A stretch of DNA of 22,899 nt from positions 1 to 22,899 of IMG/VR virus record IMGVR_UViG_3300030379_000127; one strand, written 5' to 3'. The notes under the pieces are model-generated. The model had not been told where the DNA came from. It made no database searches and was given only the letters and a program-made list of their open reading frames with translations. The translations under genes were made by a program, and so were the position numbers. Each line of letters starts with the position of its first letter. The stretch's first letter is position 1. Origin of the DNA: a virus. Lineage: Duplodnaviria > Heunggongvirae > Uroviricota > Caudoviricetes. Shown here in pieces: positions 3,962-15,361 of this stretch.

Positions 3962-5877
3962 GCCGCTACCCCCGCTTTCTGGATTGCTACCAGCAGATCA
4001 GCCAGGTGGCGAGCAGCGCCATTAACCAGCTCTTCGTTTTCCTCAAAACGCCCGGCAGCCTGAAGGGCTGCAATCGCTTCCCGGACATTGCCCCGGGCGT
4101 TACGGATCTCCGCCATGTCAGTGCTTTGCATATCCATCACGTTATTGAGATATTCAATGGCTTTATTAGCCTCTGCATCTGCTTCGCTAACCGTTTCATC
4201 AGGCTGTGCCGGGGCAGGTTCTGGCTGAGTAATCTCACCGACTTCGGCCTGCAATGCATTGATCATGCTCTGCACCATTTTTTCGGTGCCAGCGCCCCCC
4301 GGATACGCAATATTGGGGAAAGTTTTTTGAAACTGAGTTTTCAGCATTACGCGGAACTCGTCTGGTGAGCTGGTGGCCAGCTCCAGAGCTTTTTGTGCAT
4401 ATTTGCCAAACGGACCATTAGTAAGTGTCTTCGCCAAGAAGTCGAAAGAATCCTCGCGAGGCAATAACTTCAGGTCGTACTCACTCATTTGCTGATCAGA
4501 AAGCGGGGTATCGTAAGTAGCAATGCCGTAGCGTGCATATTCATAATACGGGTCACCTTCATCAGGGCGCGGCAGAATTGCTTTGTTACCTTCAGGTATT
4601 GCGCCAGGGGCCGCCGGACGCATTTGCAGGGCATATCGATATGCACCTACAGAGACTTCTGGTTCAGGCGAAGAGCTACCGGTATCCTCCGCTGGTTCAG
4701 GTTCGACGTTTTCCGGTTTATGTTCTTCTGGTTGGACCAGGTATTCCGATACATTACCCGCTTTATAGGCTTTAAACAGCTTGCCGATCGCATCTGCCAT
4801 GTCCACACCCTGTATGGATTTAGCCTTGATCATGTACACGCTGCCATCCGAATCGGTTAACTGGATATACCCTTCACCGTCCTCAATGAATTGCTTCATT
4901 GATGCACCATTACTGAGCGTCACTTCCCCGTTCATATGCATACGATTTTTGATACTTGCAAGGCGATCCGTCATCGCGCGAGAGTGTCCACCAGTCATCC
5001 CCGCAGGAGCAATGGTTTCGCGCCCACCAGTTCGATTGAGCTGATCAATCTCCGTCTGCAAACGCTCATTCTCTTCATAAAGAGAATCCGCTTCCGATGC
5101 AACAGCGTTAATTTTCTGCTCCAGATCTACCTTCTGCCCTTCTACCGCTGCCACCTGATCCGCGAGGTCGCTCATGGCATCCTCTTTCTGGTCACTGTCA
5201 GCCTGTAGTTGGGTTATTTCATCAACCAGGGCTTTTTTCTTCTTCTGCGCACGCTGGAATTTTGCCGAGTTTTTCTCTGCAAGGTTGGCAAGTTTCATGG
5301 TGACCTGCGCCAGCGTCATATCACGTCCACTCATCGGAGCAACGGTATGAGTAACGTCTTTTTTATTCAGTAAGAACTGGAAAGCAATCAGCGTATCGCT
5401 ATTGGTGATCCGGTTTTCCGCTGTCGGGCTATGAAACAGAATGCTGATAGTCTGACCATCACTGAGCGGAATAATGGCTGGCAGGACCGGCAGCCCGTTA
5501 ACGTTACGTGCCCGGCCAATTTCAGCCCCGCCGATCGCGCGTGCACCGTTCTGGGCCACATCCCCCGTTTTATCACTCCCCGCAGAGATTCCGGTACCAT
5601 TCAGCTTCTGGTTTAATGCCCGGACAAATGCCTGCATGGTCCGGTGTAACTGCAAACGAGTAGAACTAATCGCCTCCAGTAAATCCGTAGCACACCAGTG
5701 GATCGGCGTGTCATAGAAGAACGTAGCCTCGATTTCCTCCAGGGTGTTGGATTCCGTCATCAGATAGCGGTCCTCACCGGCCATTAATGCGCGATATTCA
5801 TCATCAGTCACTGGCGGGGGAAGCACGTCAAGCCCAGGCTTGATCGTCACCCCTTTATTGATATTGAACTGTTCCAT
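3958..5877 (-). CDS. darA: DarA-like antirestriction / internal head protein (639 aa)
   Basis: 639-aa ORF with a central coiled-coil region (QLQADSDQKEDAMSDLADQVAAVEGQKVDLEQKINAV). Residues around LSDGQTISI...EKNSAKFQ are homologous to the upstream 203-aa ORF, the relationship expected for hdf (homolog of DarA fragment) and darA. Confidence 0.6.
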   Translation of the reverse strand: MEQFNINKGVTIKPGLDVLPPPVTDDEYRALMAGEDRYLMTESNTLEEIEATFFYDTPIHWCATDLLEAISSTRLQLHRTMQAFVRALNQKLNGTGISAGSDKTGDVAQNGARAIGGAEIGRARNVNGLPVLPAIIPLSDGQTISILFHSPTAENRITNSDTLIAFQFLLNKKDVTHTVAPMSGRDMTLAQVTMKLANLAEKNSAKFQRAQKKKKALVDEITQLQADSDQKEDAMSDLADQVAAVEGQKVDLEQKINAVASEADSLYEENERLQTEIDQLNRTGGRETIAPAGMTGGHSRAMTDRLASIKNRMHMNGEVTLSNGASMKQFIEDGEGYIQLTDSDGSVYMIKAKSIQGVDMADAIGKLFKAYKAGNVSEYLVQPEEHKPENVEPEPAEDTGSSSPEPEVSVGAYRYALQMRPAAPGAIPEGNKAILPRPDEGDPYYEYARYGIATYDTPLSDQQMSEYDLKLLPREDSFDFLAKTLTNGPFGKYAQKALELATSSPDEFRVMLKTQFQKTFPNIAYPGGAGTEKMVQSMINALQAEVGEITQPEPAPAQPDETVSEADAEANKAIEYLNNVMDMQSTDMAEIRNARGNVREAIAALQAAGRFEENEELVNGAARHLADLLVAIQKAGVAA

Positions 5878-6490: not shown

Positions 6491-6911
6491 CCTGTGCGAG
6501 ATTTATTACGTAACTTCTGCGGATTTGCTGAGTAACAGGGAAAATCCGATACAACGGGTTAATGAACGAGTCGCCATGCGTAACCATGACGTTGAAATGC
6601 CACAGTCGCTCTCCTTTACCCATATATTCAGTGGGTATGTACAACCATTCACTGTTTTCGCCCTGTTCAGCCGACGTCAAACAACGTTGTTCGCCTTCAA
6701 TCACTGTCGTCGGCTTCTGAACATCGCGGATCCAATATCTGACCGTTGCGCCGCGCAAAAACGGGAATTTAGACCGGTATTTGAACGGCACCCGGATGAA
6801 ACCCGGTTTAATTTCCACATCACCAAGTTCTAAATGCGTGATGTCCTTGCGTTTTAGCAAATAGCGATCGGCTAAGGCTAACGCAAGAACGCATACACCC
6901 CAGCCAATCAT
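6468..6911 (-). CDS. lydB: Putative antiholin / lysis-regulator (147 aa), LydB-like by position
   Basis: Start overlaps the stop of the upstream 109-aa membrane protein by 4 bp; hydrophobic N-terminus (MIGWGVCVLALALA). Position and size only. Confidence 0.3.
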   Translation of the reverse strand: MIGWGVCVLALALADRYLLKRKDITHLELGDVEIKPGFIRVPFKYRSKFPFLRGATVRYWIRDVQKPTTVIEGEQRCLTSAEQGENSEWLYIPTEYMGKGERLWHFNVMVTHGDSFINPLYRIFPVTQQIRRSYVINLAQDVSDDEK

Positions 6912-7237
6912 TTCCCGCCTCCCTTTTTCACCAAACTTGTAAGAACATTCAGAATGCTATCGATATTCACTCGTTTCATCCCTGAAATCACCTCATGACC
7001 GTTATTGCTGGCTATCGTTACCATTAAGTACGTAATTGATAACTCCCAGCCCTCGTGTTGCCCCAATAGGTACGCCACCGCGCCAGCTGTCACTGCAACA
7101 AAGATCTCCGTAACCAATCCCAACAAATTGCCAGACTGGCGACCGTCTCGGACATCCATCAGGAACGTGCCTATCCCACCAATTACTGAAAGCAGGAGCG
7201 CAATAGCAACTGGAGCTAATTCCTGTGTGTCAAGCAC
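6908..7237 (-). CDS. lydA: Putative holin (109 aa), LydA-like
   Basis: Small protein with two to three hydrophobic helices (VAIALLLSVIGGIGTFLM, IFVAVTAGAVAYLLG) and a charged C-terminus (KKGGGK); first gene of the operon that continues into hdf-darA. Confidence 0.4.
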   Translation of the reverse strand: MLDTQELAPVAIALLLSVIGGIGTFLMDVRDGRQSGNLLGLVTEIFVAVTAGAVAYLLGQHEGWELSITYLMVTIASNNGHEVISGMKRVNIDSILNVLTSLVKKGGGK

Positions 7238-7311
7238 AAGTTCCCTCCTACGTTGTCAGGAGGTAATGGTATGCAAAGTAACTTCTCAACCGGTTATGTT
7301 GCATAAGAGAC

Positions 7312-7575
7312 TTACCTATTCAACCGACTTTTGGAACCTTCAATAATAAGCCTGCTATTGGCGCTGAAAATAAGAACCATGCAGCTCTGAAGGCTTTCAT
7401 TCATGTCCTTATATTCCGCGAGATACATGCCAATAAAGCCAGCAAGTACGGCGGAAATACATTCGGCCAGCAATTTCTTGCATGAAGACTCGTAACGGTT
7501 TTCACATAGCCCACTCAAATACGAATACACCCCACCAAGAAGGGATAACATCACGATATGTACATAAAATGTCAT
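7312..7575 (-). CDS. Hypothetical small membrane protein (87 aa)
   Basis: ORF with two hydrophobic segments upstream of the holin-like gene; no recognisable motif and it may not be expressed. Confidence 0.25.
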   Translation of the reverse strand: MTFYVHIVMLSLLGGVYSYLSGLCENRYESSCKKLLAECISAVLAGFIGMYLAEYKDMNESLQSCMVLIFSANSRLIIEGSKSRLNR

Positions 7576-7871
7576 TTTTTACCTATACAACAGTAAGTTG
7601 AACAACATTTGAGAACGGTATGCACTTTGTGATTTCCACACACACTGGTTTTGTTAATTAAAACCTGTAGCTTGCAATAAATAACGATAGTGGGCAGAAA
7701 ATATGCTAATAGGCTATGTACGCATATAGACAAATGAACAAAACACAGCTATGCAGTGAAAAGCACTTGAAAGCGCAGGATGTGAGCTAATTTTTGCGAA
7801 TAAGGCGAGCAGCAAAAAAGCTGGGCACCCTGGGTTAAAAAAGGTTCTGCGTATGCTTTCCAGAGGTGATA

Positions 7872-7890
7872 CCCTAGTCTCGGACTAGGG
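7872..7890. promoter_or_regulatory. Perfect palindrome ccctagtc-tcg-gactaggg in the 435-bp intergenic region
   Basis: 8-bp inverted repeat with a 3-nt spacer, seen directly; lies between the lyd/dar operon start and the 3' end of the invertase fragment. No T-tract follows, so an operator is more likely than a terminator. Confidence 0.2.
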
Positions 7891-8010
7891 ACAACATTTC
7901 GAGAACAGTTTTCATTAGCGGTCAGCAGGCGCTAGATACATCGAATTGATGTGCCGCGCGATAAATGTACCTATTCTATCAAGATAAATTACACCGACGC
8001 GGCATTAGAA

Positions 8011-8238
8011 TTACAGCTCAGATTGAGTTTGGCGCTTCTCTACAGGATGATAACGATAAATCGTCGATACACCGATATCGTAAATAATTGCCAACTGTTT
8101 CCTGCTGTAGCCATTTTCGATCAACCTCGCTATTTGCTCATGTTGTTCTTTTGTCAACTTCGGGCGACGTCCGCCAATGCGTCCCTGTTCGCGTGCAGCT
8201 GCCAGTCCGGCCAGTGTTCTCTCAACAATTAATTCACG
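8011..8238 (-). pseudogene. cin: Serine DNA-invertase, detached C-terminal (helix-turn-helix) fragment
   Basis: Minus-strand translation RELIVERTLAGLAAAREQGRIGGRRPKLTKEQHEQIARLIENGYSRKQLAIIYDIGVSTIYRYHP matches the C-terminal DNA-binding region of Gin/Cin/Hin/Min invertases. Homology starts abruptly at 8238, at a crossover core; the ORF sequence upstream of it is unrelated antisense of cassette 1. Confidence 0.85.
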
Positions 8239-8252
8239 TTGGTTTGGGGGAA
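8227..8252. other. Hybrid crossover site (junction B): aattaattcacg-TT-ggtttgggggaa
   Basis: Right half-site ggtttgggggaa is identical to the cassette sites; the left half is invertase coding sequence. The TT core at 8239..8240 is the breakpoint. Confidence 0.75.
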
Positions 8253-8705
8253 GGCTCAGCATTGCCTGTTGGCGTACCTGTTCCGTGGCCCTCAGCCACT
8301 CCGCCAACGGGGTGGCTGAAATGTAACGGAGCAGCATTTTCTTCTGAAAAGTACCCAAATCTGGCAAAGGCTTACCCTACTAATAAATTGCCGGATTTAC
8401 GCGGTGAATTTATTCGTGGCTGGGATGACGGACGTGGTGTGGATGCCGGGCGACAATTATTATCTTCACAGGGGGATGCAATAAGAAATATTGAGGGGTT
8501 CGCAGATGGCGGGATCGGCATGTCTTTTGATGCAATCAGAGGGGCTTTTTACGATGCAGGAACACGATCAGCGAGAATGCCGAATAACACAACTACTATA
8601 GACAAAACCGATGACCTTGGATTCGACGCCTCTCGTGTCGTGCCAACAGCTAATGAAAACCGTCCTCGTAATATTGCCTTTAATTATATCGTAAGGGCGG
8701 CATAA
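8241..8705 (+). CDS. Tail-fibre C-terminal cassette 1 (promoterless 3' gene segment)
   Basis: Reads GLGEGSALPVGVPVPWPSATPPTGWLKCNGAAFSSEKYPNLAKAYPTNKLPDLRGEFIRGWDDGRG, then a unique core, then RPRNIAFNYIVRAA-stop. No start codon or RBS of its own. Confidence 0.75.
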   Translation, partial: GLGEGSALPVGVPVPWPSATPPTGWLKCNGAAFSSEKYPNLAKAYPTNKLPDLRGEFIRGWDDGRGVDAGRQLLSSQGDAIRNIEGFADGGIGMSFDAIRGAFYDAGTRSARMPNNTTTIDKTDDLGFDASRVVPTANENRPRNIAFNYIVRAA

Positions 8706-8724
8706 AAACGTTGGTTTGGGGGAA
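8699..8724 (+). other. Crossover site 2: ggcataaaaacg-TT-ggtttgggggaa
   Basis: 26-bp site with a 2-bp core; resembles gix/hix (TTATCnAAAACC-nn-GGTTTnnnGAAA-like). The left half overlaps the stop codon of cassette 1. Confidence 0.7.
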
Positions 8725-9144
8725 GGCTCTGCACTGCCTGTTGGTGTGCCCGTTCCGTGGCCCTTAGAAACACCACCAACGGGCTGGCTAAAATGCAATG
8801 GTGCAGCATTTTCTTCTGAAATGTATCCCAAACTGGCAAAAGCCTACCCCACCAATAAATTACCGGATTTACGCGGTGAATTTATCCGTGGCTGGGATGA
8901 TGGGCGCGGGATTGATGCGGGACGTACCCTGCTTTCAGGGCAGGATGGTACAAGTTTTTCTCATTACGGAGGTAATTTCGACATTGGGTCTGGTCATTCA
9001 ATCAATAACTATGACCAAATTGTTTCTAACCAACCAGGATTTTCCCGTTTTTCATTTGCAGGGCCTTCACGAGGTGATGGGGTTAATTATGTAACCATTC
9101 GTCCTCGTAACATTGCGTTTAATTATATCGTAAGGGCGGCATGA
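8713..9144 (+). CDS. Tail-fibre C-terminal cassette 2
   Basis: Conserved 5' end (GLGEGSALPVGVPVPWPLETPPTGWLKCNGAAFSSEMYPKLAKAYPTNKLPDLRGEFIRGWDDGRGID), unique core, conserved 3' end RPRNIAFNYIVRAA. Confidence 0.75.
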   Translation, partial: GLGEGSALPVGVPVPWPLETPPTGWLKCNGAAFSSEMYPKLAKAYPTNKLPDLRGEFIRGWDDGRGIDAGRTLLSGQDGTSFSHYGGNFDIGSGHSINNYDQIVSNQPGFSRFSFAGPSRGDGVNYVTIRPRNIAFNYIVRAA

Positions 9145-9163
9145 AAACGTTGGTTTAGGGGAA
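9138..9163 (+). other. Crossover site 3: ggcatgaaaacg-TT-ggtttaggggaa
   Basis: Same architecture as site 2; overlaps the stop codon of cassette 2. Confidence 0.7.
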
Positions 9164-9658
9164 GGCTCGGCGCTGCCCGTTGGTGTACCTATTCCATGGC
9201 CCTCAGCCACACCGCCAACGGGGTGGCTGAAATGCAATGGTGCAGCATTTTCTTCTGAAAAGTACCCAAATCTGGCAAAGGTTTACCCAACGTTAAAATT
9301 ACCTGATTTACGCGGTGAATTTATCCGTGGCTGGGATGATGGGCGCGGGGTGGATGCTGGCCGCGCTTTGCTTAATTGGCAGCCACACACAATTTTGGAC
9401 CATGCACACTATATGGAATTATGGACAGGGGACGGACTCGCCGCAGGAAGTGCACGGGAAGGCGTAAATCCAGGAATACTAGCTACATACGGTGACGGGG
9501 GAATAGTTAAAACGGACGAACCCGGTCATAAGGTGCCTTCCTCACTACGAGCTATTAGCTCTCGTAGTGTTAAACGTTATGGTGAAATTAGTGGAAATGT
9601 AGGTACAGAAACTCGCCCTCGCAACGTTGCATTTAATTACATCGTAAGGGCGGCATAA
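9152..9658 (+). CDS. Tail-fibre C-terminal cassette 3
   Basis: In-frame translation from the site gives GLGEGSALPVGVPIPWPSATPPTGWLKCNG...GWDDGRGVDAGRALLNW..., ending ETRPRNVAFNYIVRAA. The ORF track lists only the 3' part (9350..9658) because there is no in-frame start codon upstream, consistent with a silent cassette. Confidence 0.7.
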   Translation, partial: GLGEGSALPVGVPIPWPSATPPTGWLKCNGAAFSSEKYPNLAKVYPTLKLPDLRGEFIRGWDDGRGVDAGRALLNWQPHTILDHAHYMELWTGDGLAAGSAREGVNPGILATYGDGGIVKTDEPGHKVPSSLRAISSRSVKRYGEISGNVGTETRPRNVAFNYIVRAA

Positions 9659-9677
9659 AAACGTTGGTTTAGGGGAA
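9652..9677 (+). other. Crossover site 4: ggcataaaaacg-TT-ggtttaggggaa
   Basis: Conserved 26-bp site overlapping the stop codon of cassette 3. Confidence 0.7.
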
Positions 9678-10136
9678 GGCTCTGCACTGCCTGTTGGTGT
9701 GCCCGTTCCGTGGCCCTTAGAAACACCACCAACGGGCTGGCTAAAATGCAATGGTGCAGCATTTTCTTCTGAAATGTATCCCAAACTGGCAAAGGCTTAC
9801 CCTACTAATAAATTGCCGGATTTACGCGGTGAATTTATTCGTGGCTGGGATGACGGGCGGGGGATTGACTCTGGCCGTAATTTATTATCTGCACAGAATG
9901 ATGCAATTCAGAATATTGTTGGTTCTTTCGGGCGTACTCAGCTTTTTAGAGATGTACTTAGTTCAGGGCCATTTAGTCAACATGGTCAAGTATTATCTAC
10001 AGGCCTAAAGGAAACGGAAATTATTGAGGGTTATGGCTCTTATAACTGGACATTCGACGCCTCTCGCTCAGTTCGTACAGCATCTGAAACCCGCCCCCGT
10101 AATATTGCATTTAATTACATCGTAAGGGCGGCATAA
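9666..10136 (+). CDS. Tail-fibre C-terminal cassette 4
   Basis: Conserved 5' and 3' ends, unique core (...LLSAQNDAIQNIVGSFGRTQLFRDVLSSGPFSQHGQVLSTGLKETEIIEGYGSYNWTFDASRSV...). Confidence 0.75.
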   Translation, partial: GLGEGSALPVGVPVPWPLETPPTGWLKCNGAAFSSEMYPKLAKAYPTNKLPDLRGEFIRGWDDGRGIDSGRNLLSAQNDAIQNIVGSFGRTQLFRDVLSSGPFSQHGQVLSTGLKETEIIEGYGSYNWTFDASRSVRTASETRPRNIAFNYIVRAA

Positions 10137-10155
10137 AAACGTTGGTTTAGGGGAA
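10130..10155 (+). other. Crossover site 5: ggcataaaaacg-TT-ggtttaggggaa
   Basis: Conserved 26-bp site overlapping the stop codon of cassette 4. Confidence 0.7.
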
Positions 10156-10650
10156 GGCTCGGCGCTGCCCGTTGGTGTGCCTGTTCCGTGGCCCTCCGCC
10201 ACACCACCAACGGGGTGGCTGAAATGTAACGGAGCAGCATTTTCTTCTGAAAAGTACCCAAATCTGGCAAAGGTTTACCCAACGTTAAAATTACCTGATT
10301 TACGCGGTGAGTTTATCCGTGGTTGGGATGATTCGAGAGGGATTGATACAGGGCGTTCATTGCTAAGTGGTCAGACTGCAACATTTATTCGTACAGCTTT
10401 GCAGGATTATTACGGTGTCGATCTGACTACTAATGTCAAAGTAGGTATCGCTTATGCTACTGCTGATTCTGTTATAACTGTTGGAAACCCTGCTAATCCT
10501 AAAGCAGGAGATAATAGCGATTATGTTCCAGCATCATCAGATAACTCCATAACAGGCACTCAAAGGACGGCAGAGGATAATTTTACCGGGGCATGGATAT
10601 CAATGCGCCCCCGCAACGTTGCTTTTAATTACATTGTAAGGGCCACATAA
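10144..10650 (+). CDS. Tail-fibre C-terminal cassette 5
   Basis: Conserved 5' end, unique core, conserved 3' end (RPRNVAFNYIVRAT). Confidence 0.75.
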   Translation, partial: GLGEGSALPVGVPVPWPSATPPTGWLKCNGAAFSSEKYPNLAKVYPTLKLPDLRGEFIRGWDDSRGIDTGRSLLSGQTATFIRTALQDYYGVDLTTNVKVGIAYATADSVITVGNPANPKAGDNSDYVPASSDNSITGTQRTAEDNFTGAWISMRPRNVAFNYIVRAT

Positions 10651-10669
10651 AAACGTTGGTTTAGGGGAA
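10644..10669 (+). other. Crossover site 6: cacataaaaacg-TT-ggtttaggggaa
   Basis: Conserved 26-bp site overlapping the stop codon of cassette 5. Confidence 0.7.
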
Positions 10670-11158
10670 GGCTCGGCGCTGCCCGTTGGTGTGCCTGTTC
10701 CGTGGCCCTCAGCCACACCGCCAACGGGGTGGCTGAAATGCAATGGTGCAGCATTTTCTTCTGAAAAGTACCCAAATCTGGCAAAGGTTTACCCAACGTT
10801 AAAATTACCTGATTTACGCGGTGAGTTTATCCGTGGCTGGGATGATGGGCGAGGGATTGACTCTGGTCGCTCTATTTTAAGCGAGCAAGGATATGCAACG
10901 GAGGATCATGCTCACGGATTACCGTCAAAATCAACCGTAGCAACTGACCGCTCAATTAATTTCTACTTTGACGAGGCATGGGCTACTAGTGGTAATACGG
11001 GAGTTATCAGATGGGGGAACACAAGCGATGCAGGATTGCCAGCCCCTAATTATGGAACTTTTAAAACATATAAACAGTCCGTAGCTAATTTAGGTACTGC
11101 TGGCTTAGAAACCCGCCCTCGTAATATTGCATTTAATTATATTGTGAGGGCGGATTAA
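10658..11158 (+). CDS. Tail-fibre C-terminal cassette 6 (last of the plus-strand array)
   Basis: Conserved 5' end, unique core, 3' end RPRNIAFNYIVRAD-stop. No crossover site follows; it abuts the 3' end of the convergent tail-fibre-assembly gene. Confidence 0.75.
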   Translation, partial: GLGEGSALPVGVPVPWPSATPPTGWLKCNGAAFSSEKYPNLAKVYPTLKLPDLRGEFIRGWDDGRGIDSGRSILSEQGYATEDHAHGLPSKSTVATDRSINFYFDEAWATSGNTGVIRWGNTSDAGLPAPNYGTFKTYKQSVANLGTAGLETRPRNIAFNYIVRAD

Positions 11159-11163
11159 TTATA

Positions 11164-11775
11164 TCAACTGGCTGTAGAAAGTTGTTTTTCAGGCCAGTTG
11201 AGATCTGGTGCCGTGGTTAAATCCATCGCGTTCAGCTCGTCTATATAATCTAGCACGGAGTTAAGCTGCGTGGTTTCTGCCTGCGTCAACTTCCGTCCAG
11301 CCCGTAATTTCAACTGAATCAGACTAATGGAATCCATCGCAGTATCAATCAATGACTGACGTTTTGTTTCTGCTGCCTCTACAGCTGCACTATGTTGAGC
11401 CTCAGTATCAACCACCCATTTCTCTCCATCCCATTTGTCGTATGGTGTTAGCGGGGCGATAGTGGTTGTATTTTCCGGATAGTCACCCAACACCGTGATT
11501 TCTTCGGGATTCCCAGTGTCAATGCTATAGACAGTTTCGCCACGATGATCTGGCACATACTCCCATGAACTTAAATCCTCTGAACGGAGAATCGCATAAC
11601 CTGCTTTATGTGAGCCTGGAGCATCCAAACAAGAATTTGCCGGAATACCAACGCCAACAGCAAGATATTCAGTTGATGCAGAAATATATTCCCGATTACC
11701 ACCATCATAGTTATAAACGATAATGTTTCCTGCCTGTATGGCTATAAGTTCGCTATTTAATATCGCATTATCCAT
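11164..11775 (-). CDS. Tail-fibre assembly chaperone (Tfa/U-like, 203 aa)
   Basis: Start overlaps the cassette 7 stop (TAATG). C-terminal region (LIQLKLRAGRKLTQAETTQLNSVLDYIDELNAMDLTTAPDLNWPEKQ) fits the conserved C-terminal pattern of caudoviral tail-fibre assembly proteins. It is the only such gene in the array. Confidence 0.6.
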   Translation of the reverse strand: MDNAILNSELIAIQAGNIIVYNYDGGNREYISASTEYLAVGVGIPANSCLDAPGSHKAGYAILRSEDLSSWEYVPDHRGETVYSIDTGNPEEITVLGDYPENTTTIAPLTPYDKWDGEKWVVDTEAQHSAAVEAAETKRQSLIDTAMDSISLIQLKLRAGRKLTQAETTQLNSVLDYIDELNAMDLTTAPDLNWPEKQLSTAS

Positions 11776-12236
11776 TATGCTGCTCTCACAATATAATTGA
11801 AGGCAATGTTACGTGGGCGGGTTTCATTCCCCCCAGATAACTCCGTTCTGTATTGACTGGTAAATTTACCATTAATCGCTCCTTGCCGGACGGCGTTATC
11901 TGTCGACAACAGACTATCCCCCCCTCTGTCATTTGGCACCAATACCGTGTTATCCCACGCGTCCCATGACCGAATATTATGATAATGACTTCCTGTTAAC
12001 CACCCCTGTATGCTTAAGATGACCCTTCCCGCATCCACACCTCGCCCATCATCCCAACCACGGATAAACTCACCGCGTAAATCCGGTAATTTATTGGTGG
12101 GGTAGGCCTTTGCCAGTTTGGGATACATTTCAGAAGAAAATGCTGCACCATTGCATTTTAGCCAGCCCGTTGGTGGTGTTTCTAAGGGCCACGGAACGGG
12201 CACACCAACAGGCAGTGCAGAGCCTTCCCCCAAACC
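11775..12236 (-). CDS. Tail-fibre C-terminal cassette 7 (opposite orientation to cassettes 1-6, co-oriented with tfa)
   Basis: Minus-strand translation (G)LGEGSALPVGVPVPWPLETPPTGWLKCNGAAFSSEMYPKLAKAYPTNKLPDLRGEFIRGWDDGRGVDAGR...ETRPRNIAFNYIVRAA; begins at crossover site 7. Confidence 0.75.
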   Translation of the reverse strand, partial: GLGEGSALPVGVPVPWPLETPPTGWLKCNGAAFSSEMYPKLAKAYPTNKLPDLRGEFIRGWDDGRGVDAGRVILSIQGWLTGSHYHNIRSWDAWDNTVLVPNDRGGDSLLSTDNAVRQGAINGKFTSQYRTELSGGNETRPRNIAFNYIVRAA

Positions 12237-12250
12237 AACGTTTTAGTCTT
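12225..12250 (-). other. Crossover site 7 (inverted): reverse complement aagactaaaacg-TT-ggtttgggggaa
   Basis: Same right half-site as the other cassettes but in inverted orientation; its outer flank leads into the invertase 5' region (SD aagagg at 12289..12294, ATG at 12305). Confidence 0.7.
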
Positions 12251-12304
12251 AATCCCTACCTATACCAACGATGTATTTTTAACTAAACAAAGAGGTTGTT
12301 TTTC

Positions 12305-12742
12305 ATGCAAATTGGCTACATTCGTGTGTCAACAAATGACCAAAACACAGATTTACAAAGAAATGCACTGAACTGCGCAGGATGTGAACTGATTTTTGAA
12401 GATAAAATAAGCGGAACAAAGTCAGCCAGACCAGGCTTGAAAAAGCTGCTCAGAACGTTATCAGAAGGAGATACGCTGGTTGTCTGGAAGCTGGATAGGC
12501 TTGGCAGAAGTATGAAACACCTTATCACGCTTATAGAGGAGTTGCGGGAAAAAGGTGTTAATTTCCGTAGTCTGACAGACAGTATTGACACATCAACACC
12601 CATGGGGCGTTTCTTTTTTCATGTCATGGGTGCTTTAGCAGAAATGGAAGGTAATCAAGAACGCTCTGAATACTGGTCTTACCAAGAATGGCGCGTCCAA
12701 CACTTGTCAATGCAGTTAACGCGGCACGATCAACACCTGTGA
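12305..12742 (+). pseudogene. cin: Serine DNA-invertase, N-terminal catalytic fragment (about 115 aa of homology, then 30 unrelated codons)
   Basis: MQIGYIRVSTNDQNTDLQRNALNCAGCELIFEDK...LVVWKLDRLGRSMKHL...SLTDSIDTSTPMGRFFFHVMGALAEME is a typical resolvase/invertase catalytic domain with the active-site Ser in RVSTNDQ. Homology stops at 12649, at the AA core; the rest of the ORF is antisense of the tail-fibre 3' end. Confidence 0.85.
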
Positions 12743-13997
12743 AATAAGGGAGTTTATCTGCTGCTGTAGCTAGTGCCGCTAGAGCAGTGAGCGTAGCGTC
12801 TGCCGCTTGCTTTCCATTAGCCAAATCATATGCAGCCTTGACAGCTTTCGGTGTGGCGGCCAGCACTTCGGACGTGCTATTGGTAGCACTGCTGAGTTGG
12901 ACTATCCCTTTTTGAGCCGTGGTTGCATCCTGGGCTGTATACTTCCCGTTAGCCAAATCATATGCAGCCTTGACAGCTTTCGGTGTGGCGGCCAGCACTT
13001 CAGACGTGCTGTTAGTGGCACTACTGAGCTGAGTGATGCCTTTCGCTGTCAATGAAGCTGTTGGCACACCAGTGATCTGATTCCAGGGATGTGTATGACT
13101 GGATGGTGCCTTTCCGGCTGCTAGATCGTATGCAGCTTTAACCGCTTTTGGAGTTGCAGCTAATGTTTCAGAAGTGCTGTTGGTGTCGCTACTGAGCTGA
13201 ACTATCCCTTTTTGTGTCGTGGTTGCATCCTGGGCTGTATACTTCCCGTTAGCCAGGTCATATGCAGCCTTGACAGCTTTCGGTGTGGCGGCCAGCACTT
13301 CAGACGTGCTGTTAGTGGCACTACTGAGCTGAACTAATCCCTTTTGCGTTGTGCTTGCATCCTGCGCCGTATACTTGCTTTTCGCCAGATCGTAGGCTTT
13401 TTTAACTGCCAGCGAACTCGCAGCAACATCACTTCTGGTACTGGTTACAGAGTCTGAAATATCAATGCCGATCGTGCGGTTGATACGCTCGGATGTATCA
13501 ATCATCTCTTGAGTAATGGTAGATACGCCAGCAGGGATATTCACCGTACAAACCAGCAGTTCCCCATCACCTAACTGATATGAATCGGTATAGGTTCTGG
13601 CAACAAATTCAGCTGCATGAATATGTGACGCGGTATTCACCTGATAGGTATCTTCTCCAAGAAGGTATCTTCCCTTCAGCACAATTGCATATTTCTTGCC
13701 TGCGTTAAGTGCAAGAGAGATATCCTTACGATGCTGAATAGTTACCTGGTAGAATTCACCAATATCCACTGACGCCGCGCCAGCGGTTTTATCTCCATCC
13801 ACTGAGGTGATTAACAGGTTCATCCCACCGCCAGGCTTAGGCAAGAAACCAGCATAAAATCCCGGGTCAACAATTCCCCTGAATTTTCGGTTTAGAGCGG
13901 CTGACAGATATGGTTCGTGGTATTGCACATCAGCCACCAGAGCCAACGACTCGGGTGATGGGTAAGTAACCGATGTAACAACTGTAACGTCATTCAT
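12624..13997 (-). CDS. Tail-fibre protein, constant N-terminal portion, disconnected from all C-terminal cassettes
   Basis: Start MNDVTVV with SD aagga 8 nt upstream (the ORF track's 14084 start overlaps the upstream gene). Contains the tail-fibre repeat KYTAQDATTTQKGIVQLSSATNSTSEVLAATPKAVKAAYDLANG about four times. Ends ...SIQSVLDYL then PFLLKHP-stop, where a cassette (GLGEGSALPVG...) would be expected. Confidence 0.8.
   Translation of the reverse strand: MNDVTVVTSVTYPSPESLALVADVQYHEPYLSAALNRKFRGIVDPGFYAGFLPKPGGGMNLLITSVDGDKTAGAASVDIGEFYQVTIQHRKDISLALNAGKKYAIVLKGRYLLGEDTYQVNTASHIHAAEFVARTYTDSYQLGDGELLVCTVNIPAGVSTITQEMIDTSERINRTIGIDISDSVTSTRSDVAASSLAVKKAYDLAKSKYTAQDASTTQKGLVQLSSATNSTSEVLAATPKAVKAAYDLANGKYTAQDATTTQKGIVQLSSDTNSTSETLAATPKAVKAAYDLAAGKAPSSHTHPWNQITGVPTASLTAKGITQLSSATNSTSEVLAATPKAVKAAYDLANGKYTAQDATTAQKGIVQLSSATNSTSEVLAATPKAVKAAYDLANGKQAADATLTALAALATAADKLPYFTGVDRAALTALTSVGRAILGKTSIQSVLDYLPFLLKHP
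12636..12661. other. Hybrid crossover site (junction A): tagcagaaatgg-AA-ggtaatcaagaa
   Basis: Right of the AA core (12648..12649) is the fibre constant-region half-site (reverse complement TTCTTGATTACC, like the hix left half TTCTTGAAAACC); left of it is invertase coding sequence. Confidence 0.75.
12810..13425. repeat. Tandem 111-bp (37-codon) repeats inside the tail-fibre constant region, about 4.5 copies
   Basis: Near-identical DNA blocks (for example gccagcacttc(g/a)gacgtgct(a/g)tt(g/a)gt(a/g)gcact(g/a)ctgag...) recur with 111-bp period; the plus-strand antisense ORF 12807..13055 shows the same periodicity. Confidence 0.8.
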
Positions 13998-14008
13998 CAA
14001 GCATATCC

Positions 14009-14443
14009 TTATGCTGTAGTCGAGTTTATGGCCATAACTGCGGTATATGTTTTGCCCACATACAGCGAGTCTTCCTGGACACAAATAATGGCGATTGGCT
14101 TATTCTCGTTATCCAGAACAACCAGAGTGTTGAATGGGTAGTTTTTCCCTTCCTGCAACTGACTTTGATCAAGGTCCATTCGGACAGTAATTATCCCGCC
14201 TGAGTAGGTTGGGACGAGGTTGATGGTGCAAAATTGACTGGTCAGTTCTGCCAGATCGAAAGCCTTAGGCAGTTCTCCAATCTCATAAGTGCCATCTCCT
14301 TTCTTAGTAACCAGTGAACTGGTACCAAAAACGGCCTTGCTGATTAAAAATCGAGAGCCTTTGTTAATGGACGATTCAGCGCGCCGCTGATAGTAATAGT
14401 CCAACAACTGACTCTTATAGAGGTTTGTTGAGACGTCAGACAT
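14009..14443 (-). CDS. Tail-fibre operon protein upstream of the fibre gene (144 aa), positionally like P1 R
   Basis: Intact ORF ending 11 nt before the fibre start codon; no motif recognised, assignment by position only. Confidence 0.4.
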   Translation of the reverse strand: MSDVSTNLYKSQLLDYYYQRRAESSINKGSRFLISKAVFGTSSLVTKKGDGTYEIGELPKAFDLAELTSQFCTINLVPTYSGGIITVRMDLDQSQLQEGKNYPFNTLVVLDNENKPIAIICVQEDSLYVGKTYTAVMAINSTTA

Positions 14444-14521
14444 GATTTTCCCTAATCAATGTTGTGAAGCCTCATTGTAAGATAAGTAACTTGTCACCCC
14501 GCCCTGCGGACGGGGTGATTG

Positions 14522-15361
14522 TCACGCATCGCTATCCAACAGCAAATCATCTGCGCGGGTGCGATCAAACGTAGGCGTTGCTTTCACAATAGTGCCGCCC
14601 GGCGTTGCAGTGATCGGGGCGTTAATCGACGTAACTTCAGTAAGCGAAGTTGTATCCGAAGTTTCAAACCAGCAGAATGCTTTTTCGGTATCAGAAATCT
14701 CATTCAAAGTAATCATGTCGGCCTGTTCATTTACAACAACCGACAAATAGAGCGTAAGCCCATCAAACACTATATGCAGTGGCAGTAGAGGCTTTACGAA
14801 CTGATTAAACTTTCTGAGAATTTCTTCTGTAATTGCGGACTGATCTATCGTTCCAGTAATACCCATTGTCCGGGCCAGGTCGTTTATGGGAATACTGATC
14901 ATTCCTCTGGAAGTCAGAAACATCTCGCCGAATGTGCCGCCGGTGGTTTCCAGTGTGCTTTCTGGAATCAGGACCGTGCCATAGGGATGACGTTCAAAGT
15001 CCACCGGAGCATATATGGGATCCCATAAAACCGATATACCGTTAAATTCGCGATAAATTGTCTGGTTTATAGGGCGTTCAGTACCCTTAAAATGGATCTC
15101 ATCAAACCGCTGTTGTAACAACATCGGAACGGAAGATGAATTCGACGTCCTGATAGTAAAAAACTGGCCAAGTTCATTTGTCCTAGTCTCCAGATCCTCC
15201 TTGCTCATGGAGAAAATAGACTTCCGGTTGGTAATTCGCTCCAACCATGGGTCAACAAAGGTGTCCATCATTGACTGAACCAAATCAGCCAATGATTTAT
15301 AAAGTAATGACTTTTGCTTAGCTGATGTAAGCCGGTTATTAAACCAGGAACGCTGCATCAC
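14522..15361 (-). CDS. Baseplate / tail structural protein (279 aa)
   Basis: Start overlaps the stop of the upstream 477-aa gene by 4 bp; sits between the baseplate genes and the fibre operon. Functional call is positional. Confidence 0.4.
   Translation of the reverse strand: MMQRSWFNNRLTSAKQKSLLYKSLADLVQSMMDTFVDPWLERITNRKSIFSMSKEDLETRTNELGQFFTIRTSNSSSVPMLLQQRFDEIHFKGTERPINQTIYREFNGISVLWDPIYAPVDFERHPYGTVLIPESTLETTGGTFGEMFLTSRGMISIPINDLARTMGITGTIDQSAITEEILRKFNQFVKPLLPLHIVFDGLTLYLSVVVNEQADMITLNEISDTEKAFCWFETSDTTSLTEVTSINAPITATPGGTIVKATPTFDRTRADDLLLDSDA

What the first reader, a model, noticed from the sequence alone, without database searches (positions are those of the whole stretch)
8227..12661. 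Seven-cassette, seven-site multiple-inversion array for the tail-fibre tip
Seven alternative tail-fibre C-terminal segments are present: six in tandem on the plus strand (8241..11158) and one on the minus strand (11775..12236). Each is preceded by a 26-bp site of the form xxCATAAAAACG-TT-GGTTT(A/G)GGGGAA, which resembles gix/hix/cix sites. Every cassette has the same layout: about 60 conserved residues, a 50-90 residue core unrelated between cassettes, and a conserved tail RPRN(I/V)AFNYIVRA. Six plus-strand cassettes sit inverted relative to the fibre constant region, which is the geometry that lets an invertase bring any one of them to the expression site. This is far more complex than the two-state G and C segments of Mu and P1, and is closest to the Min system of plasmid p15B as I recall it.
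Basis: partly seen in the sequence, partly recalled or inferred. Interest (0 to 1): 0.8.

Follow-up and report, generated by a model that had tools for sequence, protein, structure and literature searches.

The report
Min-type tail-fibre shufflon, self-locked
This is a P1/p15B-type phage-plasmid locus that swaps seven alternative tail-fibre tips by DNA inversion, a well-known kind of system, caught here after a mis-targeted inversion cut its own invertase gene in two and left the fibre gene without a tip.

Summary
There are seven in-frame tail-fibre tip cassettes (143-168 aa): six in tandem on the + strand and one on the - strand followed by the only tail-fibre assembly gene. Each starts 14 nt into a 26-bp Din-type crossover site (12 + TT + 12).

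The kind is not new. The locus has the grammar of the p15B Min multiple-inversion system. All seven variable cores recur at 97-100% aa identity in sequenced E. coli IncY P1-like plasmids. One of these, pSX12-6, carries ten cassettes.

No cassette is joined to the fibre constant part, and the invertase gene is split: codons 1-115 at 12305-12649 (+), codons 116-190 at 8238-8011 (-). Re-inverting 8239..12649 in silico restores a 573-bp invertase gene with 0 mismatches to the one in intact relatives, and an in-frame Sc-C1 fibre. Both junctions lie exactly at the central TT. I read this as a conservative inversion between the expression site and a weak quasi-site inside the invertase gene.

The locked form appears in three human-gut metagenome assemblies. 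It was absent from 5,426 E. coli genomes and 72,556 plasmids. It is a known kind of system in an unusual dead state.

The parts
7704..7883 (+). Pseudo-invertase 5' fragment, cin-like, with in-frame stops. It occupies the position of psi-win in p15B.
   Evidence: Alignment to the P1 cin 5' end. tblastn finds residues 1-59 at 63% identity. The P1 record notes the homologous p15B segment.
8011..8238 (-). Invertase C-terminal fragment: codons 116-190 plus stop, containing the HTH DNA-binding domain.
   Evidence: Joined to 12305-12649, it gives a 573-bp gene with 0 mismatches to the pLAO54 recombinase WP_001165547.1.
8227..8252 (+). Hybrid crossover site A: AATTAATTCACG TT GGTTTGGGGGAA. The left half is invertase coding sequence and the right half is the start of C1.
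   Evidence: This left half occurs only in the window and its metagenome twins, and in none of the seven related plasmid loci surveyed.
8241..8705 (+). Cassette C1 (154 aa + stop).
   Evidence: Pfam Collar domain.
8699..8724 (+). Crossover site 2. Its left half holds the last codons and the stop of C1; its right half holds the first codons of C2.
8713..9144 (+). Cassette C2 (143 aa + stop).
9138..9163 (+). Crossover site 3.
9152..9658 (+). Cassette C3 (168 aa + stop).
9652..9677 (+). Crossover site 4.
9666..10136 (+). Cassette C4 (156 aa + stop).
10130..10155 (+). Crossover site 5.
10144..10650 (+). Cassette C5 (168 aa + stop).
10644..10669 (+). Crossover site 6.
10658..11158 (+). Cassette C6 (166 aa + stop). 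No site follows it. It is convergent with tfa.
11164..11775 (-). The single tail-fibre assembly (chaperone) gene, 203 aa. Its ATG overlaps the C7 stop (TAATG).
   Evidence: Pfam Caudo_TAP, E = 3e-30. It corresponds in position and length (203 aa) to the tail fiber assembly gene WP_000367945.1 annotated in the relatives.
11775..12236 (-). Cassette C7 (153 aa + stop). It always travels with tfa and C6 as one segment.
12225..12250 (-). Crossover site 7: AAGACTAAAACG TT GGTTTGGGGGAA. Its left half is the fixed flank next to the invertase promoter.
   Evidence: Seven of the eight related loci carry exactly one site with this left half; p10_578_3, pSX12-6, pKFu022_2 and pLAO54 also carry exactly one Sc-type left half.
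12305..12649 (+). Invertase N-terminal fragment: codons 1-115, the catalytic domain. It holds the presumed recombinational enhancer at about 12323-12394. It reads on into antisense Sc, giving a 145-aa ORF that ends at 12742.
   Evidence: Pfam Resolvase match truncated at model position 124 of 145. 58 of 72 bases identical to the annotated P1 cin enhancer.
12636..12661 (-). Hybrid crossover site B: TTCTTGATTACC TT CCATTTCTGCTA. The left half is the Sc half-site and the right half is invertase coding sequence.
12624..13997 (-). Tail-fibre gene S as it now stands: the constant part Sc (449 aa, ATG at 13997, five Phage_fiber_2 repeats), then 7 foreign codons (PFLLKHP) and a stop. No tip is attached.
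14009..14443 (-). Homologue of P1 gene R, the first gene of the fibre operon.
   Evidence: Pfam Phage_P1_tail_fiber_R on the identical gene in L010.
14474..14492 (-). P1 late promoter LPs, conserved base for base.

Best explanation
The locus is the tail-fibre host-range switch of a P1/p15B-like IncY phage-plasmid found in a human gut metagenome.

How it works when intact:
- A Din-family serine invertase, with Fis bound at an enhancer inside the 5' end of the invertase gene, inverts DNA between any two oppositely oriented 26-bp sites.
- Each site lies entirely in coding sequence. The left half holds the last codons and stop of one cassette, or the end of Sc. The centre is TT. The right half holds the first four codons (GLGE) of a cassette.
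- Each inversion that involves the Sc site therefore fuses the constant fibre shaft in frame to a different tip.
- The conserved head and the conserved C-terminal strand of each cassette are the two parts of one collar domain. The variable core is the distal receptor-binding excursion.
- Five cassettes are simple segments. C6, tfa and C7 form one two-headed segment. With seven sites, this grammar allows 1,440 isomers and seven different fibres.

The present state:
- An inversion took place between the Sc|C1 site and a weak quasi-site with the same TT core inside the invertase gene, at codons 115/116.
- It inverted 8239..12649.
- It split the invertase gene and replaced the fibre tip with 7 nonsense codons.
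- As encoded here the element cannot switch, and it should make tip-less, non-adsorbing fibres.
- Only an invertase supplied in trans could restore a fibre, either by reversing the event or by recombining hybrid site B with sites 2-6.

Shown by the sequence: the anatomy, the frames, the exact reciprocal junctions and the identity to intact relatives. Inferred: that the element's own invertase did it, the enhancer function, the phenotype and the structural reading.
For: Cassettes, sites and frames:
-.
- The sites match the Din consensus and the EC958 Phi2 sites (PMC4134206).

The split invertase and the junctions:
- The re-joined invertase fragments give 190 aa / 573 bp with 0 mismatches to the pLAO54 recombinase gene. 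pSX12-6, p10_578_3, pe1-39_A and pKFu022_2 are annotated with the same protein, WP_001165547.1.
- That exact protein is UniRef100 Q05517_ECOLX and was seen on at least 1,000 contigs.
- The restored Sc-C1 junction reads SVLDYL|GLGEGS, as in the intact pLAO54 fibre.
- Both junctions fall on the central TT, with no base lost or gained.
- No other invertase gene is in the window.

Comparison with relatives:
- Relatives follow the grammar. In the four loci that span the whole array there is one Sc left half, one invertase-flank left half and one C6/tfa/C7 segment. The same cassettes appear in different orders and orientations.
- A breadth-first search of that grammar gives 240 isomers for six sites and 1,440 for seven. 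240 is the figure I recall being published for p15B.

Junction B is real:
- It is reproduced by three ENA assemblies made with different assemblers.

Domains:
- Collar domain in all seven cassettes, Caudo_TAP in tfa, Phage_fiber_2 in Sc, truncated Resolvase in the N-terminal fragment.
- C7 aligns to the T4 gp37 tip structure 2XGF at both its ends, including NIAFNYIVR.

Context:
- The P1 late promoter LPs is conserved upstream.
- Invertasome mechanism: PMC3798978.
- The Min shufflon as a serine-invertase system: PMC6109161.
Against: - The quasi-site is a poor match. It ranks 337th of 3,584 TT-centred 26-mers with a matrix built from the seven sites, and matches about 8 of 22 consensus positions. 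Sequence alone does not explain why it was chosen.
- There are no read-level data, so inversion activity in this element and a minority of intact isomers are both untested.
- The three assemblies that share the junction probably come from one cohort or sample (PRJEB6997/ZHAN15). They are identical outside repeats, so they do not prove independent or long-lived inheritance.
- The order of C1-C5 rests on short-read assembly through heads of about 200 bp that are nearly identical. One assembly skips them.
- I could not obtain the p15B sequence or the original papers. The comparison with Min rests on the annotated P1 record, secondary citations and my memory.
- The structural reading rests on sequence homology only. 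The AlphaFold model failed.
Confidence: 0.85

Rival explanations
1. This is an active seven-cassette Min-type shufflon in an ordinary isomeric state. The encoded invertase can bring any + strand cassette to the expression site.
For: The sites are intact and highly conserved. The cassettes are open and in frame. The six + strand sites are inverted relative to Sc.
Against: - The only invertase gene is split into 12305-12649 (+) and 8238-8011 (-).
- Sc is fused to antisense invertase sequence and stops after 7 codons.
- Two sites carry foreign half-sites never seen in relatives.
- This state is not among the 1,440 legal isomers.
Confidence: 0.03
2. The split invertase and the tip-less fibre are assembly artefacts of a mixed population of isomers. 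The real molecule is intact.
For: The window is a short-read metagenome contig. Invertible regions are known to confuse assemblers (PMC4134206). Different assemblies disagree on the cassette array.
Against: - The two partners share only the 2-bp TT, far too little for a graph assembler to join without reads that span the junction.
- The two junctions are exactly reciprocal.
- Junction B is found by three assemblers, including a k=127 contig.
- Legal isomers never involve the invertase coding sequence.
Confidence: 0.04
3. The same reciprocal inversion occurred, but it was catalysed by a different Din-family invertase acting in trans, for example one from a resident prophage, rather than by the element's own enzyme.
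For: Din invertases cross-complement (established knowledge). The EC958 paper infers trans action on a prophage with a truncated invertase (PMC4134206). E. coli chromosomes are rich in related invertible fibre regions.
Against: Nothing argues specifically against it, and the sequence outcome would be identical. The cis-encoded enzyme and its enhancer are the most economical source.
Confidence: 0.15
4. The intragenic crossover is a built-in, recurrent lock rather than an accident. Under this reading the system uses the quasi-site to switch off both the invertase and the fibre, reversibly.
For: The quasi-site has the correct TT core. It lies in a stretch (AEMERELI) conserved in P1 Cin. The event leaves both gene halves mutation-free.
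Against: - The junction is absent from 5,426 complete E. coli genomes and 72,556 plasmids, although hundreds of them carry this family.
- It is also absent from IMG/VR and the GTDB representative genomes.
- The site is weak.
- Conservation there is explained by protein function.
- Reversal would need an invertase the element no longer makes.
Confidence: 0.04

Closest known systems
Min multiple-inversion system of plasmid p15B (E. coli 15T-; Sandmeier, Iida, Arber 1990-92)
   Same: - Both lie on a P1-like IncY backbone with the same gene order: holins, pseudo-invertase 5' fragment, invertase, invertible array, Sc, R, late promoter LPs.
- Both use a serine invertase and 26-bp sites with a 2-bp core.
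- Both fuse a constant 5' fibre part, rich in repeats, to alternative 3' parts.
- The site grammar derived here reproduces the 240 isomers for six sites that I recall being published.
   Different: - The window has seven cassettes and sites (1,440 isomers) rather than six.
- The present copy is locked by an inversion into its own invertase gene.
- Direct sequence comparison with p15B (X62121) could not be run.
Min-type arrays in sequenced E. coli P1-like plasmids (pSX12-6, p10_578_3, pKFu022_2, pe1-39_A, pLAO54)
   Same: - These plasmids are annotated with the same invertase protein, WP_001165547.1, that the re-joined fragments encode, and with one tfa gene in the same place.
- The half-sites are the same, and the C6/tfa/C7 segment recurs in pLAO54, pSX12-6 and p10_578_3.
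- All seven window cores are found at 97-100% aa identity in pSX12-6.
   Different: - Their invertase is intact, and in the four loci that reach Sc it is joined to a cassette.
- Array sizes range from 3 to 10 cassettes.
- Cassette order differs.
Cin/C-segment of phage P1 and Gin/G-segment of phage Mu
   Same: - The invertase is 73% identical to Cin.
- The central dinucleotide TT is the same, and the right half-site is similar (cixL ...AAACC TT GGTTTAAGAGAA).
- The enhancer lies inside the 5' end of the invertase gene.
- The Sc/Sv logic is the same.
   Different: - P1 and Mu have two sites, two long Sv parts and two chaperones (U, U'), giving two states.
- Here there are seven short collar-type tips and a single chaperone gene.
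Cin quasi-site (cixQ) recombination (Iida and Hiestand-Nauer 1986/87; cited in PMC4134206; content from memory)
   Same: It is a rare crossover between a true site and a poorly matching site that shares the central dinucleotide, and it produces hybrid sites.
   Different: Here the quasi-site lies inside the invertase's own gene, so the event inactivates the system. I found no report of that, but the relevant older literature is not in the searchable library.
R64-type shufflon and the bifidophage Rin shufflon
   Same: Both assemble variable C-termini onto a constant N-terminal part through multiple inversions (PMC6109161).
   Different: Those use tyrosine recombinases and short asymmetric sites. 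Here there is a serine invertase and 26-bp dyad sites.
T4 gp37 long-tail-fibre tip (PDB 2XGF) and gp12-type short tail fibres (1OCY, 9CUY)
   Same: The N-terminal collar sequence and the C-terminal ...NIAFNYIVR strand are conserved. HxH motifs occur in cores C3, C6 and C7.
   Different: The cores here are much shorter (51-76 aa). No structure could be predicted.

Membership tests
Din-family (Min/Cin/Gin/Hin/Pin) invertase-driven fibre switch | A serine invertase (Resolvase catalytic domain plus C-terminal HTH) encoded next to the invertible DNA. | tested here: inconclusive
   The gene is present but split. The N-terminal fragment hits Pfam Resolvase. The re-joined 190-aa product is identical to the intact invertase of relatives and 73% identical to P1 Cin. 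As encoded, no functional invertase is made.
Din-family (Min/Cin/Gin/Hin/Pin) invertase-driven fibre switch | 26-bp crossover sites: two imperfect 12-bp inverted half-sites around a 2-bp core. | tested here: met
   There are seven sites with a TT core. They match the published consensus and the EC958 Phi2 sites, and resemble P1 cixL.
Din-family (Min/Cin/Gin/Hin/Pin) invertase-driven fibre switch | A Fis-dependent recombinational enhancer in cis, within the 5' end of the invertase gene. | tested here: inconclusive
   Window 12323-12394 aligns to the annotated P1 cin enhancer at 58 of 72 bases. Fis binding and enhancer activity were not tested.
Din-family (Min/Cin/Gin/Hin/Pin) invertase-driven fibre switch | A constant 5' gene part fused in frame to alternative 3' parts at the crossover. 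| tested here: met
   The Sc frame (…GAT TAC CTT) continues into GGT TTG GGG GAA of every cassette. All cassettes start at site position +14. At present no cassette is fused.
p15B Min-type multiple-inversion system (shufflon) | More than two crossover sites, giving overlapping invertible segments. | tested here: met
   There are seven sites. The grammar gives 1,440 isomers.
p15B Min-type multiple-inversion system (shufflon) | P1-like backbone context: lyd holins, pseudo-invertase fragment, invertase, array, S, R, LPs. | tested here: met
   (Pfam LydB, P1 holin, P1 tail fibre R, P1 Gp16).
p15B Min-type multiple-inversion system (shufflon) | Sequence identity of the invertase and cassettes to p15B Min (X62121). 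| not testable with these tools
   p15B is not in the collections, and its papers are not held. Indirect evidence: another plasmid of this group has an invertase 98.5% identical to Min (PMC6906374). Our protein is UniRef100 Q05517_ECOLX, whose origin I could not check.
p15B Min-type multiple-inversion system (shufflon) | Observed population of isomers, meaning inversion actually occurs. | not testable with these tools
   No reads are available. Indirect evidence: identical cassettes sit in different orders and orientations in relatives with an intact invertase.
R64-type shufflon | A tyrosine recombinase (Rci) and sfx-type sites. | tested here: not met
   The recombinase is of the Resolvase/serine type, and the sites are of the Din type.

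The most novel reading that the evidence does not exclude
The crossover inside the invertase gene is not a one-off accident but a recurrent, selectable lock. Min-type systems would then occasionally use the TT-centred quasi-site at codons 115/116 to switch off both the recombinase and the fibre. This would convert an infectious phage-plasmid into a fibre-less plasmid, which a trans-acting invertase from another prophage could reactivate.
Probability: 0.04. Interest if true: 0.6.

Novelty: new member of a known kind. Interest (0 to 1): 0.3.

Why it matters
- The element documents how much tip diversity Min-type arrays carry: 7-10 interchangeable collar-type tips served by one chaperone gene, and 1,440 or more isomers. 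That is useful for host-range prediction and for engineering P1-based delivery particles.
- The locked state is a clean natural example of off-target action by a serine invertase destroying its own gene.
- It is also a simple one-step route by which a phage-plasmid can lose infectivity while persisting as a plasmid.
- Neither point changes how these systems are understood.

Tried and rejected
- AlphaFold2 of cassette C7 with the seven-cassette alignment gave a mean pLDDT of 37. The model was unusable, so no fold search was run. This is expected for a shallow alignment of an intertwined trimer.
- The sigma-70 promoter and terminator scan of 7500-14600 found nothing above shuffles. P1 late promoters are not covered by that scan. 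LPs was found instead by direct comparison with P1.
- The original p15B and P1 papers, the Johnson 2015 review and pJIE250-3 (MN510445) are not held. A literature search for quasi-site recombination returned only noise.
- The tfa protein has no sequence relative in the PDB.
- I considered treating ERZ773108 NODE_1811 as an independent lineage sharing the lock. I rejected this because all mismatches to the window lie at repeat edges. It is the same element with collapsed repeats.
- I considered a tyrosine-recombinase shufflon. Pfam rejected it.
- I considered assembly chimerism. I rejected it because the junctions are reciprocal, share only 2 bp, and are recovered by three assemblers.

Full report
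**1. The observation**

The region contains seven cassettes that translate without stops:

| Cassette | Coordinates | Strand | Length |
|---|---|---|---|
| C1 | 8241-8705 | + | 154 aa |
| C2 | 8713-9144 | + | 143 aa |
| C3 | 9152-9658 | + | 168 aa |
| C4 | 9666-10136 | + | 156 aa |
| C5 | 10144-10650 | + | 168 aa |
| C6 | 10658-11158 | + | 166 aa |
| C7 | 12236-11775 | - | 153 aa |

- Each cassette begins exactly 14 nt into a 26-bp sequence of the form 12 + TT + 12, with the right half GGTTT(A/G)GGGGAA.
- The strict pattern gives 6 matches where shuffles give none.
- Heads of about 76 aa are 84-96% identical. Cores of 51-76 aa are 12-34% identical. The last 16 residues are 75-100% identical.
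- All seven cassettes carry a Pfam Collar domain at residues 11-58.
- The description is therefore correct, with small corrections. The head is longer than 60 aa. Only five sites have the left half xxCAT(A/G)AAAACG. C1/C4 and C3/C6/C7 share short motifs.

**2. What surrounds it**

- Downstream of C7, and overlapping its stop, lies the only tail-fibre assembly gene (11164-11775, -, Caudo_TAP).
- On the - strand to the right lie three features:
  - the fibre constant part Sc (ATG at 13997, five Phage_fiber_2 repeats);
  - the homologue of P1 gene R;
  - the P1 late promoter LPs, conserved base for base.
- To the left lie P1-type holins and a cin-like 5' pseudo-fragment with stop codons (7704-7883). 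This is the layout that the annotated P1 record attributes to p15B.
- Megablast finds parts of the region in 535 plasmid records, mostly E. coli and mostly non-mobilizable. The relatives examined are typed IncY.

**3. The key finding: the system is broken by its own chemistry**

- The window has no intact invertase gene.
- Codons 1-115 lie at 12305-12649 on the + strand. Codons 116-190 lie at 8238-8011 on the - strand. The two pieces flank the array in opposite orientation.
- Joined, they give a 573-bp gene with zero mismatches to the recombinase gene of pLAO54. pSX12-6, p10_578_3, pe1-39_A and pKFu022_2 are annotated with the same protein, WP_001165547.1.
- The exact protein is UniRef100 Q05517_ECOLX, seen on at least 1,000 contigs.
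- Sc ends …SVLDYL and then reads PFLLKHP-stop through antisense invertase sequence.
- The two junctions are:
  - A (8227-8252, +): AATTAATTCACG TT GGTTTGGGGGAA
  - B (12661-12636, -): TTCTTGATTACC TT CCATTTCTGCTA
- Re-inverting 8239..12649 in silico does two things at once. It restores the invertase. It also restores a proper site, TTCTTGATTACC TT GGTTTGGGGGAA, with Sc fused in frame to C1 (SVLDYL|GLGEGS), exactly as in the intact pLAO54 fibre.
- The event was therefore conservative and reciprocal, and it was placed on the central dinucleotide of a true site. That is the signature of a serine invertase.
- Its partner was a quasi-site in the invertase coding sequence, AATTAATTCACG TT CCATTTCTGCTA, which shares the TT core. 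Otherwise it is a weak match, ranking 337th of 3,584 TT-centred 26-mers.
- Use of quasi-sites with a matching core is known for Cin. That statement rests on my memory of Iida and Hiestand-Nauer 1986/87, cited in PMC4134206.

**4. Is the locked form real?**

- A 30-mer across junction B is absent from IMG/VR and from the GTDB representative genomes.
- No record among 5,426 complete E. coli genomes or 72,556 plasmids spans the junction.
- It does occur in ENA human-gut metagenome assemblies:

| Assembly | Contig | Relation to the window |
|---|---|---|
| ERZ28658024 | scaffold_1371 | 100.000% identical over the 20,438 bases compared, including all seven cassettes in the same order |
| ERZ914957 | k127_134905 | 100% identical; breaks in the C7 head |
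| ERZ773108 | NODE_1811 | Has both junctions; lacks C1-C5 and 300 bp of Sc repeats |

- All mismatches between NODE_1811 and the window sit at repeat edges. It is the same element with repeats collapsed or deleted.
- These assemblies probably derive from one cohort (PRJEB6997/ZHAN15). They show that the junction is not an assembler artefact. They do not show independent inheritance.
- The order of C1-C5 is less certain than the junctions.

**5. How the intact system works**

- In the related plasmid loci, exactly one site carries the invertase-flank left half (AAGACTAAAACG); this holds for seven of the eight related loci examined, counting the ERZ773108 contig. In the four loci that extend to Sc, exactly one site carries the Sc left half (TTCTTGATTACC). 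Every other left half is the end of a cassette (…GCA TAA AAA CG).
- C6, tfa and C7 travel together as one segment with a cassette start at each end; this is seen in pLAO54, pSX12-6 and p10_578_3.
- The same cassettes appear in different orders and orientations in different plasmids.
- A breadth-first search of this grammar, allowing only inversions between oppositely oriented sites, gives these counts:
  - 240 isomers for six sites, the number I recall being published for p15B;
  - 1,440 isomers for seven sites.
- The present arrangement is not one of them.
- The enzymology is established for this family (PMC3798978) and inferred here: dimers bind each site, Fis and the enhancer assemble the invertasome, a 2-bp staggered cut is made, and subunits rotate.
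- The stretch corresponding to the P1 enhancer is 58 of 72 bases identical.

**6. What the cassettes are**

- C7 aligns over its full length to a solved short tail fibre (9CUY).
- It also aligns at both ends to the T4 gp37 tip (2XGF): residues 6-70, and residues 131-153 including NIAFNYIVR.
- This supports the reading that head and tail are two parts of one collar domain and the core is the distal, receptor-binding excursion.
- HxH motifs in C3, C6 and C7 recall the metal-binding motifs of gp37 and gp12 (from memory).
- A structure prediction failed.
- A single chaperone gene serving all the tips fits the invariant head and C-terminal strand, but that is inference.

**7. Consequences of the present state (inferred)**

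- The late transcript from LPs would encode R, a tip-less S, then untranslated C7, then tfa. Virions should lack functional fibres.
- The 145-aa product of the N-terminal fragment lacks the DNA-binding domain.
- An invertase supplied in trans could reverse the event. It could also recombine hybrid site B with sites 2-6 to create Sc-C2..C6 fusions without repairing the invertase.

**8. Comparison and novelty**

- The kind of system is known. PMC6109161 summarises the p15B Min shufflon as a serine-invertase system generating variable fibres.
- Every component of this copy recurs in public plasmids, some with larger arrays (10 cassettes in pSX12-6).
- Decay of this region is also common in the family: an IS insertion in pe1-39_A and frameshifts in others.
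- The individual point of interest is the suicide inversion into the invertase gene. I did not find it reported, but the older literature could not be searched.
- Interest is modest (0.3). Novelty: a new member of a known kind.

Noticed in passing
window 7704-7883 (+): A cin-like invertase 5' pseudo-fragment with in-frame stop codons. It is closer to P1 cin than to the element's own invertase, and it sits where p15B has psi-win. Its enhancer-equivalent stretch is 62 of 72 bases identical to the P1 enhancer.
   Followed up: partly
window 11164-11775 (-), relative to Sc at 12650-13997 (-): There is only one tfa gene for seven tips, and it is fixed to C7 in the two-headed C6/tfa/C7 segment. In every isomer with that segment in the C6-first orientation, including the inferred parent of the present state, tfa is antisense to the fibre operon. 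Half of the legal isomers would then lack read-through expression of the chaperone, unless tfa has its own promoter.
   Followed up: no
window 12624-14084 (-): The mechanical ORF start (TTG at 14084) is spurious. The true S start is the ATG at 13997, 12 nt after the R stop. Sc here is 449 aa, shorter than in pLAO54 (703-aa fibre) and p10_578_3 (776-aa fibre). ERZ773108 has 300 bp fewer still. The copy number of the Phage_fiber_2 repeats therefore varies, or collapses in assembly.
   Followed up: partly
window 14474-14492 (-): The P1 late promoter LPs (-22 box and -10) is conserved base for base upstream of the R homologue.
   Followed up: yes
L006 (pe1-39_A) 8166-10417; L007 (pKFu022_2) 4070-4390, 5198-5657, 6633-8487; L003 (pSX12-6) 6561-6939: Related plasmids often carry damage in this region: ISEc10 inserted in the fibre gene, and frameshifted cassettes or fibre genes. 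Decay of the host-range module seems common among P1-like plasmids.
   Followed up: no
L008 (p98222) 2368-3358: A related array has a different central segment with two convergent tail-fibre assembly genes, as in P1 U/U', instead of C6 facing a single tfa.
   Followed up: no
window 12305-12742 (+): The truncated invertase reads through into antisense Sc, giving a 145-aa ORF: the catalytic domain without the HTH. This exact product is called on four metagenome contigs and is a convenient marker for the locked state.
   Followed up: yes
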